From Chthonomonadales bacterium (GTDB taxonomy: Bacteria > Armatimonadota > Chthonomonadetes > Chthonomonadales > CAJBBX01), in the NCBI GenBank assembly GCA_037443035.1, contig JBBIPC010000012.1, positions 36,417 to 100,416 on the forward strand: a DNA stretch of 64,000 nt, in the 5' to 3' direction. Made by a program: the position numbers. The stretch's first letter is position 1. Every line of letters begins with the position of its first letter. Shown here one piece after another: positions 54,001-60,000 of this stretch.

Positions 54001-57000
54001 AAGGTGATGCCGGACTCAGAGACGGGCCAGCGGGCGACTTGTACCTGGTCGTTCATGTCAAGCCGCACGAGTTCTTCGAACGTAGAGACAATGATCTCTA
54101 CTGCGAGGTGCCAATCTCCTTCACCGTAGCTGCACTTGGCGGCCAAGTGGAAGTCCCGGTTATCGGCGGCGCCGAGAAGGTCGAGATACCTGAGGGCACC
54201 CAATCGGGGACATCCTTCGTCCTCCGTGGGAAGGGCATGCCGGATATGAATGGCGATGGCCGCGGCAATCAGTACGTCATCGTACGCGTCGAAGTACCAC
54301 GCAAGCTTAGCGCCGAACAGCGCCAGGCGCTGCGAGCCTTTGCCCAGGCGATGGGCGAAACAGTGCCAGAGGAAGAACGGGGCTTTCTGGGCCGCATCTT
54401 CAAGGGTGAACGCTGAGGTCCAGCCGTGAAATGGGCTGAGATCTCGGTCACTTGTCCAGTCGCTTCGGAGGATGCCGTGGTCGAGTGCATGAACCGCCAC
54501 GGTTGCAGTGGCTGCGCATCGAAGCCCGCTCAGGATACATGGGATGTTGTCGTGGTCCAGGGCTGGCTGCCACTCGACGGTGGGCTGCAAGAGCGCCTTC
54601 AAGCCCTGCGCGAGGAACTGACCGGGGTGGGCGCATGCGGGCTGGCTACGCCGCAGGATTTCTCCGTCCGCGAAGTCGAGGACACAGGATGGCTTGACGA
54701 ATGGCGGAAGTACCATCGGCCGCATGCTGTGGGTCGCAGGCTGTGGATCGCTCCGCTGACAGACGCCACCAAACCTCCTGAGGGACGAATCCCTGTCATG
54801 ATCGATCCGGGCATGGCCTTCGGCACCGGCTCGCATCCTACGACCAGGCTCACGCTCACTTACCTCGACAGACTTCTCCAGCCGGGACAGACGGTAGCGG
54901 ACGTTGGAACCGGCTCTGGCATCCTGGCCATCGCCGCCGCCAAGCTCGGGGCAAGCGTTGTCTACGCTTCGGAGTGCGATGCTCTCCCACGCCAGGTCGC
55001 CGCCGACAACGCACGTCGCAACAGAGTTGCGGAGCGCGTCCGTATCATGGGCCCGCAGGAATTCGAAGGGCTCTGCCCACCTTGCGATCTTGTTCTCTGC
55101 AACATCATCGCCGAGACCATCGCTGAGTTGGCACCCACGCTGGCCCGAATCCTCGCACCTGATGGCTTCCTGGTCTGCTCCGGCATCGTGGCAGAACGCC
55201 TCACCATGGCCCTGCACGCTCTGCGGAACCAGCGCTTGATGCCCATCGAGATCGCCAGCGAGGACGTCTGGCGGACGGTTCTCCTCAGGAACCTAAGGGG
55301 GCCTTCATCATAGAGCCTTCGCGTCTTCGGCACCTGCTCGTGCCCTGCGTGCTTCCAACCGCGGGCTACCTGCGTCTCGACGGTGACGTGCATCACCGCC
55401 TCGCCAATGTGCTCAGGCTCCGCATTGGCGAACAGCTCATTCTACGCGATCCTCGAGGTTCCTCACGGCTGGCGGAAGCTGTGGAGATTACCGGTCGCTA
55501 CACGGCTTTCCGCATACACCATTCTGTGCCCTCGCCTCCACCGCCTCCGGCTCACGTCACTGTCGTTCAGGCACTTGGAAAGGGTGATCGGTTCGAGCAG
55601 GTACTCCAGCATGGCACCGAGCTCGGCGTATCGGCCTTTGTGCCAATCATCACGCTTCGGACCATTCGCCGTCATTCCAGGGACGAGACTGCTACGAAGC
55701 TCGTGCGCTGGCGGCGGATACTGGAGGCCGCTGCTGAGCAGTCGGAGCGGGACCGCGTACCGGAAATCACAGCGCCGTGCACACTGGAGGAGGCCGTCGG
55801 GATCACGAACGCATCGCTCCGCTACGCACTGGAGCCCTCTGCGGTCTATCCTCTCCAGTGGTCCCCCTTCGGAGACCCAACGCCAAGCATCGCTGTCTTC
55901 GTGGGTCCGGAAGGTGGGTTCACCACCGACGAGTTGGATCTCCTCACGGACGCGGGTGTACAGCCGCGGAGCCTCGGACCTTACGTGCTTCGCACGGAGA
56001 CCGCCGCGCTGGCGGCCGTCTCCATCCTCCTTTGGTCAGCACCACAAGGTTGACCCTCCACACAGCTTGTGCTATTCTCTCCGCACACAACGGAGGATAG
56101 CACCACCATGGCGAGCCCTCTCGTCGCTGTTGTCGGCCGCCCCAATGTCGGCAAGTCCACACTGTTCAACCGCCTCGTGCGCCAGCGTCTGGCGATCGTC
56201 GAGGACACACCTGGGGTTACGCGCGACCGACTGTACGCCAACGCTGAGTGGTGCGGCAGAACGTTCACTCTCATTGACACGGGAGGCATCGTTCTCGACA
56301 CTCAGGATCCCCTTGTCGCCCAGGTCCGGCGCCAAGCGGACATTGCCATAGCTGAAGCCGACGCTGTACTCTTCCTCACGGACGCCGAGACCGGCTTGCT
56401 GGCGGCAGACTGGGAGATCGCCGACGTGCTCAGGCGCGCGTCGTGCCCCGTGCTAGTCGTTGCCAACAAGGCCGACACCCGCACGTTGGAGACCGACGCC
56501 ATGGAGTTCCATGCCCTTGGGCTGGGGACGGTTCACCCAGTATCCGCCATCCATGGTCATGGAGTTGCCGATATGCTGGATGCCCTTCTCCAGGTGCTGC
56601 CACCTGTACAGGACGAGGAGTACTCCGACGAAACAGCGCGACTCGCAATTGTCGGTCGCCCCAATGTGGGCAAGTCCTCGCTGACCAATGCTATCGTGGG
56701 CGAGGAGCGCGTCATCGTCAGCCCACTGCCGGGCACAACGCGCGATGCAGTGGACACAGCGCTGGAGCGCGACGGCCAGAAGGCTGTGCTTGTGGACACG
56801 GCTGGCATTCGGCGTGCCGGGAAGATCCAGGGCAGCGTGGAGTACTACACGTTTCTGCGTGCCAGCAGTGCTATCGAACGTGCCAATGTCGGCATCGTCG
56901 TCATTGATGCCACGGCGGGTCTCCTGGACGGCGACAAACGTGTCGCCGGCATGGTGAACGAGGCAGGCAAAGGACTTGTCATCGCCGTGAATAAGTGGGA

Positions 57001-60000
57001 CCTTGTGGATCTTCGGTGCGGCGAACACGGCAGGCCGACAAGCTCCGTCGTGCGCCAGTTCTCGGCGCACCTTTCCAGAGAGATGCCGTTCCTGTCGTAT
57101 GCTCCTCAGGTCTACTGCTCGGCGCTTACCGGCATGGGCGTGCTCGACGTGCTCGATACGGCGCTCGAAGCGGCTGCGAACCACTCCTTTCGAATACCCA
57201 CTGGAGAACTGAACCGCATCATCCATGCCGCGGTCGAGGAACGCCCCCGAACCTTTCACGGGCGGCAACTGCGCGTCTATTACGCCACCATGCCACGAGT
57301 CCAGCCCCCGACGGTGGTCCTCTTTGTGAACGATCCGGACCTACTCCATTTCTCCTATCTGCGCTATCTGCAGAACCGTGTGAGGGAAGCGTATCCGTTG
57401 CCCGGCACTCCGATAGTCTTTCGCGCCCGACGTGCCACCGGCACCCTCGACCCCGACGCACCACCCAAGCGAAGATGACCGAGCCGTACCGACCCGCGGA
57501 TCAGCTTACCAATGACGAACTCGAGCGAGCGGGCTTCGCAGATCCAATGCGGGCAAGACGCCTCTTCCTGGGCCTCGCGGGGCAGGGTGTCACGGACGAC
57601 GACGTCGCCCAGCTTCTGCCGTCTCTGCTCTCGGCGCTGACCGAGTGTCCCGATCCCGACCGATCGCTTGCCAACTTCGCCCGCTGGTTCGATGCTCTAG
57701 GCAATCGAGCCACTTATGTCCGCTACCTACGGCATCATCCGGCTGGCGTTCGCATTCTGATCCACATCGGAGCCACCAGCCAGTTTCTGGCGGACATCCT
57801 CGCCCGCAACCCCGAGTACGCCGAGATCCTCGTCAATCCTAGCGTCCGGAGTGGTGCCAAACCAGCGGACCAGCTCCATCGCGAGCTTTCGGCCCTCGTG
57901 GGTCGCATCAGCCAACTCGAGCTGAAGCTGGAAGCCATGCGGCGATTCCGGCAACGGGAGGTCCTCCGCATCGCCTCACGGGACTTGCTGGGTCTTGCCG
58001 ACATGCCGACGACCGCCGAGGAGTTCTCCAACCTCGCGGACACGTGTGTCCAGATATGCCTGCAGCTTGCCGAGGCTGACGTGCACGAGAAGCGCCCCGA
58101 TCTTCCACATGCGCGGCTGGCCGTCATCGCTCTGGGTAAGCTCGGAGGCTGGGAACTCAACTACTCGAGCGACATTGACCTCGTATTCGTCTGCGAGGAT
58201 ACGCAGGACACGGGCCCGAACTCGGTTCTGGAGACCGCCACGCGCACCGCCGAACGAGCGATCGCCTTCTTGGCTCGAGAGGGGCAGAGCGGACACTTGT
58301 TCCGGGTTGATACACGTCTCCGTCCCGAAGGACGCTTCGGGCCTCTCGTGCGCACACTGTCATCGTACCGCACCTACTACGAGAACTGGGCGGAGACCTG
58401 GGAGCGACAGGCGCTCCTGAAAGCGCGCTTCGTCGCTGGGGATAGCAGGCTTGGAGAAGCGTTTCTGGACATGCTCGTTCCCTACGCGTTTCCGCGGCTT
58501 CTGACCGAAGCATTACTCACCGATATTCGCCATAACAAGCGACGAATGGAGGAGCCCCATCGCCGGTCCCACAATCCATCCTCGAACGTCAAGACGGGGC
58601 TGGGCGGCATTCGGGACATTGAGTTCACGGTACAGCTTCTGCAGATGCGGACAGGCGCTCGCGATCCACTGGTTCGCACACCGAATACGCTTACGGCGAT
58701 CTCTCGTCTGCGCCAGGCGGGACTGCTCACCCACACCGATGCCACTGCCTTGACAGACGCCTACATCTTTCTCCGTAACGTCGAGCACCGACTTCAGCTC
58801 CTGTACGACCGCCAGACCCAGGAACTGCCGGCCAATGCCCACGAGATCACACTGCTCGGTCGCAAGCTCGGCTTCCCTGACGGCGACGCGTTCCTCGCGC
58901 AGTATCACGGCACAGCGACGGTTGTGCGCGAGATTCACGAGCGGATCTTCTACGGAGCCCCTGAGAGAGATACACCCGCCGATGATGATTGGCGCGCCGA
59001 ACTCCTGGCGCTGGGAGCACCAGATGACGAGCTGGCGCCCAGAGCGGCACGTGATGCTGCGGCGTTGGCTGCGAAGCTCCAGGCGGAGGGCTTCCTGGAA
59101 CCAGAACGTGCGGTCCAGTTCATCGGCGCTGCCCTGTTCGGCACGGACCACGGTCGCGAGGCACCTGATGCAGTCCAAGCCTTTCGTGCACTCGCCCCAC
59201 GTCTGTTACAGGAATGCGCTCACTCTCCAGACCCCGACTCGGCTCTCATGGGCATGAGCCTGCTGGCCGATACCAGCCCCAACCGAGCGGAGTGGTATCG
59301 TGCCCTTACCGCAGCGCCCGATCTTCTCCGGCGTCTCGTGAGACTGGCTGCCGGTAGCCGCACTCTCATCCAGACCGTTGTCCGACACCCGGAGTGGATC
59401 GATTTGCTGGCCAGCGAAGAGATCGCCGCCAGAGAAGCCAAGCCCCGCTCGGCCTTCTTCGAGGAGCTGACAGAACGCCTCGCTTCTCGCGGTTCGTCAC
59501 GCGTTCGCGGGGCGCAGCCTATCGCTGGTAACCACGCACGCGCCTCGCAGGATGAGTCTGTTACCGAGCGAATACTGGATACGTTGGCCCTCTACTGTCA
59601 ACGAGAACGCTTGCGTATCGGTGCCAGGGATATGTGGGGCGAGACATCGGCAGCGGCCGTGTCTGCCGAACTATCCTATCTCTCGGATGCTGCGTTGGAC
59701 GTTCTCTTGCATCACGCGGCTCGCACCACCGCGAGCCGTCTCAGCGCCGATGCCGCGACCATTATGGATAACCTCGCAGTGTTCGGCCTCGGCAAACTAG
59801 GCGGTCTGGAGTTATCGTTCTACTCTGACCTGGACGTGCTCTTCGTCTGCAGCGATGCGGTTCTCACACATGACCGGAGTAGCGCCAGCACCGTGTCACT
59901 CTACGATCTCGTGACTGCGACGGCGGAGCAGATGCTCGAAATGACCCATCTCCTCAAGCAGCGTGGCCTGCCGTTCGACGTAGACGTTCGCCTGCGTCCC

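What a model noticed while it worked through the whole genome (the two positions that open the first line are those of the whole stretch)
55984..57384. Ribosome-assembly GTPase Era (and RimP, RlmH, ClpX) not found in a complete-looking genome
No Era gene can be found: the only KH_2 domain is in ribosomal protein uS3 and the Era model hits only MnmE and Der; RimP, RlmH, all SpoU-class methyltransferases and ClpX are also not found. I read the Era loss as real and old, because it is shared by all three Chthonomonadales and about half of the other Armatimonadota families sampled, whereas the other half keeps a typical Era. A free-living lineage that does without Era would be a natural knock-out for asking what replaces its role in 16S rRNA 3-prime end maturation and 30S assembly.
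Evidence so far: Pfam and Swiss-Prot tables: no GTPase Era, EngB, RimP, RlmH, ClpX, TrmH/TrmL/RlmB best hits; absent Pfam names listed in call 130; call 131. Six-frame search with TIGR00436 (era) in 31 Armatimonadota genomes of >=95% completeness: full-length matches of E 1e-39 to 1e-86 in 17 genomes (families f4, f6, f9, f10, f11, f13, f16, f17, f18), but only partial GTPase-domain hits of E 1e-18 to 1e-27 lying in 440-640-aa open frames (Der, MnmE) in 14, among them this genome (C1 36659-37177 = MnmE g00033; C12 92539-93420 = Der g01885) and both other Chthonomonadales. ClpX (TIGR00382) is found in 38 of 41 phylum genomes but not here, where the order is tig-clpP-lon (g01149-g01147); within the family it i [...]
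(Added by a program. Inside this text positions count along the whole contig: contig position 36,417 is position 1 of the stretch shown here. "Call 12" and the like, gene names such as g00115 and contig names such as C1 are that model's own, and its searches are not shown. The text may have been shortened before it was handed on; [...] marks where a part breaks off. The agent that wrote the report below was given it as the finding of a first reader that could run no searches.)

Follow-up and report, generated by a model that had tools for sequence, protein, structure and literature searches.

The report
Armatimonadota repeatedly lost ribosome factor Era
More than half of the sampled families of an ordinary large-genome bacterial phylum lack Era, a ribosome-assembly GTPase usually treated as near-indispensable, while a related branch kept Era and lost its partner RbfA, giving natural knock-outs for asking what Era is really needed for.

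Summary
The window gene is ordinary Der; the finding is an absence, and it holds. An Era C-terminal-domain profile finds Era in 88 of 201 phylum genomes (E ≤7e-31) and nothing at E ≤1e-3 in the other 113, including all 24 of this order and 10 single-contig genomes. None of 38 families is mixed. Controls on the same genomes are near complete (YbeY 80 of 80). A ribosomal-protein tree needs at least 5-6 changes, about 7 losses; one family's Era is a Deinococcota import. Era-less genomes are 2.1-9.1 Mb and keep the canonical 16S 3' tail. New here: RbfA, the other KH factor that binds this tail, is found in 112 of 113 Era-less genomes (the exception is an assembly break) but in 0 of 22 genomes of one Era-keeping clade. 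Best reading: Era and RbfA overlap enough that either can be lost; this rests on one RbfA loss plus published genetics and is untested. RimP, RlmH, EngB, SpoU and ClpX absences are real but do not track Era. Era loss is known in reduced genomes and Era/RbfA complementarity in CPR; I found no report for Armatimonadota.

The parts
56069..57478 (+). der (engA), ribosome biogenesis GTPase, 469 aa; the anchor of the finding and the main Era cross-hit, not an Era
   Evidence: ORF; TIGR03594 E 1.4e-155; two MMR_HSR1 domains plus KH_dom-like
56123..56494 (+). Der G-domain 1, matched by Era model positions 3-124 only
   Evidence: C12:92539-92910
56639..57004 (+). Der G-domain 2, matched by Era model positions 2-119 only
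   Evidence: C12:93055-93420
57191..57430 (+). Der C-terminal KH-like domain (PF14714), not the Era KH_2 domain
   Evidence: residues 375-454; no KH_2 or Era C-terminal match here
55340..56053 (+). rsmE, 16S m3U1498 methyltransferase, a small-subunit factor that is kept
54426..55313 (+). prmA, upstream in the dnaK-dnaJ-prmA-rsmE-der-glnE run (context only)

Best explanation
Shown: era is missing from 22 of 38 sampled Armatimonadota families, this order included. Inferred from trees: it was lost about 6-7 times independently from an ancestor that had it; family f16 carries an Era imported from Deinococcota. Inferred mechanism: Era is a kinetic helper for 30S platform folding (h23/h24, uS11) that binds h45 and the 3' tail through a type II KH domain. 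RbfA binds overlapping elements next. In these lineages the two overlap enough that assembly runs on either: Era-less families go KsgA, then RbfA (with YbeY, RimM and often RsgA), while clade f11+f34 keeps Era and has dropped RbfA. No redesign of the 16S tail was needed.
For: Absence; no mixed family; 10 single-contig Era-less genomes; YbeY 80 of 80. Repeated loss: 43 phylum rows, 6 changes, starred branches force 5; Era gene tree recovers f10+f32, f6+f36, f24+f28+f31, f11+f34; a single origin for all Eras but f16 is not rejected (p-AU 0.21); f11/f34 fits the native cluster (p-AU 0.88). Relaxed constraint: f18 Era has lost the G3 glycine and the QTTR motif (3 of 3). RbfA: 178 of 201; missing in f11 20 of 20, f34 2 of 2 and G109; G109's infB is cut at a contig end where rbfA would follow; no RbfA at relaxed threshold in 5 of 5 f11/f34 genomes and none behind infB. 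16S tail GGAUCACCUCC in 24 Era-less genomes; Shine-Dalgarno peak near -12 in G000; KsgA and RimM 5 of 5. Papers: Era overexpression rescues rbfA deletion, and both bind around h45 in a KH switch (PMC10582724 section 18; PMC9032327 passages); assembly reroutes without Era (10.1101/525360).
Against: RbfA was lost once, in a phylum where 88 of 201 genomes have Era, so falling in an Era-keeping clade has roughly even odds by chance. Published suppression runs from Era to rbfA; I saw no report that RbfA rescues Era loss. E. coli has RbfA and still needs Era, and Era acts earlier with stronger defects (PMC10582724). 187 of 505 CPR genomes lack both. No Era-less-specific change was found in RbfA by eye (14 sequences), in h23/h24/h45, or clearly above shuffles in 9 small-subunit proteins. 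f4's Era sits against the species tree (97% SH-aLRT; 91/98), Scalindua and Anaerolineae Eras fall among the native ones, and era neighbours differ by family, so more transfers are possible. f12 rests on one 93%-complete genome.
Confidence: 0.5

Rival explanations
1. Nothing replaces Era. In these bacteria platform folding is fast enough, or slow growth tolerates slower assembly, and the phylum sheds many assembly and modification factors one by one. The RbfA pattern is coincidence.
For: Independent scattered losses of RimP, RlmH, EngB, SpoU, RsgA (58 of 80) and bS21 (61 of 80); BipA and YchF not found in G000; Era is dispensable, at a cost, in several species (PMC10582724 section 5).
Against: No genome with an intact infB locus lacks both; f16 took up or swapped in an Era from another phylum, which suggests it is still useful.
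Confidence: 0.3
2. A different, unrecognised factor or a ribosome change took over Era's role in each Era-less lineage.
For: In E. coli RbfA cannot cover Era depletion. One post-hoc 16S signal: a U-U opposition in a head helix (about h39; numbering recalled) in 10 of 12 scored Era-less families against 1 of 11 Era-keeping ones, that one being f16; the neighbouring columns scored 0.82 against a shuffled 95th percentile of 0.76.
Against: No extra Era-like GTPase or KH_2 protein in G000. The 16S site is far from h45, kin are not independent, and about 1500 columns were screened. Whole-proteome profiling across relatives was not possible.
Confidence: 0.17
3. History only: Era was lost once or twice early in the phylum and today's Era-keeping families regained it by transfer.
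For: f16 Era groups with Deinococcota 100/100 and a single origin of all Armatimonadota Eras is rejected (p-AU 3e-36); f24 Era's named nearest hits are mostly Anaerolineae; era is never inside the ybeY-dgkA-hlyC block in the loci examined.
Against: Without f16 one origin is not rejected (p-AU 0.21); sub-clades of the Era tree match the species tree in both halves of the phylum.
Confidence: 0.2
4. Artefact: era is present but unassembled or too divergent to detect.
For: G000 misses EF-Tu and most of 16S; the whole-genome tool scores a limited number of candidates in large searches.
Against: All-or-none by family in 38 families; 10 single-contig genomes; the degenerate f18 Era is still found at E ≤7e-31; unfiltered search of G000 finds nothing.
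Confidence: 0.02

Closest known systems
Era loss in Chlamydia, Dependentiae and most CPR (Gruffaz and Smirnov 2023, PMC10582724, section 5)
   Same: A whole clade lacks era.
   Different: The review ties loss to extreme genome reduction and shortened rRNA. Here genomes are 2.1-9.1 Mb, the 16S tail is canonical and loss recurs about 6-7 times in one phylum.
Patchy era in Planctomycetota, Elusimicrobiota, Synergistota (same review, Figure 1 legend)
   Same: Era present in some species and not others of a non-CPR phylum; this lowers the novelty.
   Different: Only mentioned in a legend; Armatimonadota do not occur in the text (0 hits); no link to RbfA.
Complementary era/rbfA trends in CPR classes ABY1 and Paceibacteria (Amikura et al. 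2025, PMC12641178)
   Same: One or the other KH factor is kept.
   Different: In CPR 187 of 505 lack both. Here 66 have both, 22 Era only, 112 RbfA only and 1 neither, the last at an assembly break. Their non-CPR set (era 97.3%, rbfA 98.3%) held 3 Armatimonadota genomes.
Der/EngA (TIGR03594)
   Same: The window gene is a full member.
   Different: Nothing unusual found; it matters only because it passes the Era model's cut-off.

Membership tests
Era (TIGR00436, NF000908) | Single N-terminal TrmE-Era-EngA-type G-domain | tested here: not met
   Window protein has two G-domains; other G000 hits are MnmE, FeoB, HflX, IF2, Obg
Era (TIGR00436, NF000908) | C-terminal type II KH domain of Era type | tested here: not met
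   No match in G000 nor in 112 other genomes of 22 families
Der/EngA (TIGR03594) | Two tandem G-domains plus C-terminal KH-like domain, score over cut-off | tested here: met
Era-less lineages of the genome-reduced type | Strongly reduced genome | tested here: not met
   G000 3.76 Mb; Era-less genomes 2.1-9.1 Mb
Era-less lineages of the genome-reduced type | Altered or shortened 16S around h45 and the 3' tail | tested here: not met
   Canonical h45, GGAUCACCUCC and UUUCU in 24 of 24 Era-less genomes where the exact pattern matched; it did not match in the other 24 of 48, which were not examined further
Era/RbfA complementary distribution | No genome lacks both factors | tested here: met
   200 of 201 have at least one; the exception has infB cut at a contig end
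Era/RbfA complementary distribution | Pattern beyond chance over independent events | tested here: inconclusive
   About 6-7 Era losses all keep RbfA, but RbfA is near universal; only one RbfA loss
Era/RbfA complementary distribution | Functional substitution in cells | not testable with these tools
   Needs genetics or structures

The most novel reading that the evidence does not exclude
Era and RbfA are interchangeable KH-domain chaperones of the 16S 3' end. Armatimonadota resolved the redundancy both ways, several times to a GTP-independent RbfA-only route and once to an Era-only route, so 30S platform assembly can run with no Era checkpoint in normal-sized genomes with a standard 16S tail.
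Probability: 0.35. Interest if true: 0.85.

Novelty: new variant of a known kind. Interest (0 to 1): 0.66.

Why it matters
Era's exact molecular job is still called elusive, and its loss is said to be limited to extremely reduced genomes (PMC10582724). Repeated loss in large-genome bacteria, beside a sister clade lacking RbfA instead, gives matched natural knock-outs (both factors, Era only, RbfA only) for testing what Era does in platform folding and whether its GTPase checkpoint is needed. It also warns that Der passes the TIGR00436 cut-off, so simple presence tables can hide the gap (191 of 201 'over cut-off' against 88 true Eras).

Tried and rejected
Divergent or KH-less Era hidden as Der: rejected. 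One ancient loss: rejected by the species tree. Altered anti-Shine-Dalgarno tail or loss of SD-led initiation: rejected. h23/h24 changes: none seen by eye in 41 16S sequences. Convergent residue changes in 9 small-subunit and 2 large-subunit proteins: best scores at or just over the shuffled 95th percentile, none convincing. Stronger constraint on small-subunit proteins without Era: ratio 0.76 against 0.80, p 0.077, 20 against 14 families, kin not independent. Co-loss with YbeY, RsgA, bS21, RimP, RlmH, SpoU: no match. Synteny scar: not usable, since era is outside the ybeY block even where kept; in Era-less G106 the block ends hlyC-cdd and pheA follows. An early AU test did not reject one origin of all Eras (p 0.34); that changed once Deinococcota were added. 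The quick free tree behind searches was not optimal (a constrained tree scored 30 log units higher), so those p-values are rough. ESM Atlas and plasmid searches did not place the f11 Era. Rfam found only two tRNAs in window 40000-64000. Earlier scan notes: nothing on Era loss.
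Full report
What is at the coordinates. The window is G000:C12:36417-100416. The marked gene is Der, 469 aa at 56069-57478 (+), in a dnaK-dnaJ-prmA-rsmE-der-glnE run. 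It is ordinary. The finding is the absence of Era elsewhere in the genome.

Era is not found in G000. TIGR00436 gives six G-domain-only matches, best E 2e-18: MnmE, both Der domains, IF2, HflX and FeoB. A profile of 30 Armatimonadota Eras, run unfiltered over all 54,557 six-frame ORFs of 40 aa or more, gives the same cross-hits, and its C-terminal part has best E 3.1. The one KH_2 match is uS3. G000 is a draft with real gaps: EF-Tu is missing and only 482 bases of 16S are assembled. The claim therefore needs relatives.

Relatives settle it. In 201 phylum genomes at least 90% complete (a sample of a larger group), TIGR00436 scores split into full-length and G-domain-only matches. An alignment of 26 Era C-terminal domains finds 88 of 201 genomes at E ≤7e-31 and nothing at E ≤1e-3 in 113. 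The split is all-or-none in 38 families: 16 with, 22 without. All 24 genomes of this order lack it; the nearest named uL5 hit is a Chthonomonadales record. Ten Era-less genomes are single contigs, and sizes run from 2.1 to 9.1 Mb. On 80 of these genomes (48 Era-less, 32 with Era, chosen by me to cover families) YbeY is found in 80 of 80, and each Era-less genome shows one strong KH_2 match among the listed rows (41 weak rows not listed). By contrast 191 of 201 count as over the TIGR00436 cut-off, because Der alone passes it.

History. A concatenate of 23 ribosomal-operon proteins (75 phylum rows, 43 phylum rows plus 6 outgroups, quick IQ-TREE) interleaves the two states: 6 changes at least, 5 forced by strongly supported branches. 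Read as losses only there are seven Era-less groups: f1-3 (this order); f14+f29; f7+f20+f23+f27; f8; f12 (one genome, weak); f15+f21+f25+f30+f33+f35+f38; f5+f19+f22+f26. The Era gene tree recovers several species-tree groups. The exception is f16: its nearest named outside hits are Deinococcota at 59-65% identity, it groups with them at 100/100, and one origin for all Armatimonadota Eras is rejected (p-AU 3e-36), while one origin without f16 is not (0.21). The f11/f34 Era fits the native cluster. Against a tidy vertical story, f4 is misplaced, Anaerolineae and Scalindua Eras fall among the native ones, and deep nodes are weak. Era in f18 has lost its G3 glycine and QTTR motif in 3 of 3 sequences, which looks like relaxed constraint.

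What is kept. The Era-binding end of 16S is standard: h45, GGAUCACCUCC and UUUCU in the 24 Era-less genomes where the pattern matched (46 of 80 overall). G000 shows a Shine-Dalgarno peak near -12 over 994 starts. KsgA and RimM are in 5 of 5 tested, RsmE is in the window, and RsgA is in G000 but only 58 of 80.

RbfA. It is found in 178 of 201 (73 of 80 by Pfam). It is missing in f11 (20 of 20), f34 (2 of 2) and G109. G109's infB is cut at a contig end where rbfA would follow. In five f11/f34 genomes a phylum-specific profile finds nothing better than E 0.17, and other genes follow infB. f11+f34 is one clade, probably Fimbriimonadales (my inference; no call names it), and all 22 keep Era. So 66 genomes have both, 22 Era only, 112 RbfA only, 1 neither.

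Mechanism. From papers: bacterial Era and RbfA both contact h45 through KH domains, exchange in a 'KH switch' in mitochondria, and era overexpression rescues rbfA deletion (PMC10582724 section 18; PMC9032327 passages). Without Era, E. coli folds most of 16S except h23/h24 and reroutes assembly (10.1101/525360 abstract and section 12). I infer that Era-less Armatimonadota assemble the platform through KsgA and RbfA with YbeY, and that f11/f34 does the reverse. This is not shown. RbfA was lost only once, rescue in the RbfA-to-Era direction is not in what I read, and 187 of 505 CPR genomes lack both. Searches for compensating changes in h23/h24, small-subunit proteins and rates gave nothing firm; one post-hoc U-U opposition in a 16S head helix is listed as a lead.

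The other absences. All are confirmed in G000 but belong to separate patterns: RimP over cut-off in 12 of 80, RlmH 3 of 71, EngB 0 of 5, SpoU 54 of 80 with this family at 0 of 8, ClpX missing in G000 and G180, present in G048, G145 and G022. RlmH and EngB are often absent in bacteria (74% and 76% in non-CPR genomes); RimP (92%) and RlmB (97%) less often.

Known and new. The Era review says only extremely reduced groups lost Era, but its figure legend lists patchy presence in Planctomycetota, Elusimicrobiota and Synergistota; 'Armatimonad' has 0 hits (outline, passages, section 4 part 1, section 16 part 2, section 18). Amikura et al. report complementary era/rbfA trends in two CPR classes and 97.3% era in non-CPR genomes, of which 3 were Armatimonadota (text part 1 of 7, passages, supplement searches and part 249). 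Their heat-map figure could not be seen and may show the gap; I found no per-genome table in the held supplement. Nine library searches gave no report of Era or RbfA loss in this phylum; subscription journals are mostly not covered.

Verdict. Observation confirmed and widened to a phylum-scale, repeated loss with a mirror-image RbfA loss. A new variant of a known kind; absence about 0.97 sure, repeated loss about 0.8, RbfA-centred route about 0.5. Interest 0.66.

Noticed in passing
families f11 and f34 (for example L294-L298): RbfA not found in 22 of 22 genomes of this clade, all of which keep Era; their 16S tail after CCUCC reads UUAAA, UUUAC or UUUAU (7 of 7) instead of UUUCU (39 of 39 others).
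   Followed up: yes
L239:3841-4725 (family f16): Era of f16 is a Deinococcota-derived import.
   Followed up: yes
L110:3941-4852, L111:3912-4886, L112:4093-5013 (family f18): Degenerate Era: G3 glycine replaced, QTTR motif lost, KH region divergent; this family also had no RsgA in 2 of 2.
   Followed up: partly
L341:701-2149, L342:679-2088 (family f21): RbfA fused in frame to an NrnA-like DHH phosphoesterase, 470-483 aa; in G000 the two genes are adjacent.
   Followed up: partly
16S loci L205-L234, L325-L340, about 390-425 bases before the 3' end: U-U opposition in a head helix in 10 of 12 scored Era-less families and in 1 of 11 Era-keeping families (f16); post hoc, kin not independent.
   Followed up: partly
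G000 whole genome: No BipA-like or YchF-like hit with LepA and Obg queries; EF-Tu also missing, probably an assembly gap. Relatives not checked.
   Followed up: no
L097 (G000:C18:74580-76655): A second EF-G-like gene is inserted in the spc operon between rplE and rpsN.
   Followed up: no
L006 (G000:C1:199728-201825): FeoB appears split into a G-domain ORF and an overlapping membrane ORF.
   Followed up: no
80-genome panel: bS21 not found in 19 of 80, in families f6, f10, f15, f21, f25, f30, f32, f33, f36, f37, f38; RimP confined to one clade.
   Followed up: no
P0262, P0307: Scalindua (Planctomycetota) Eras group inside an Armatimonadota Era cluster (91/98), a possible transfer.
   Followed up: no
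window 63681-63762 and 63810-63881: Two tRNA genes.
   Followed up: no
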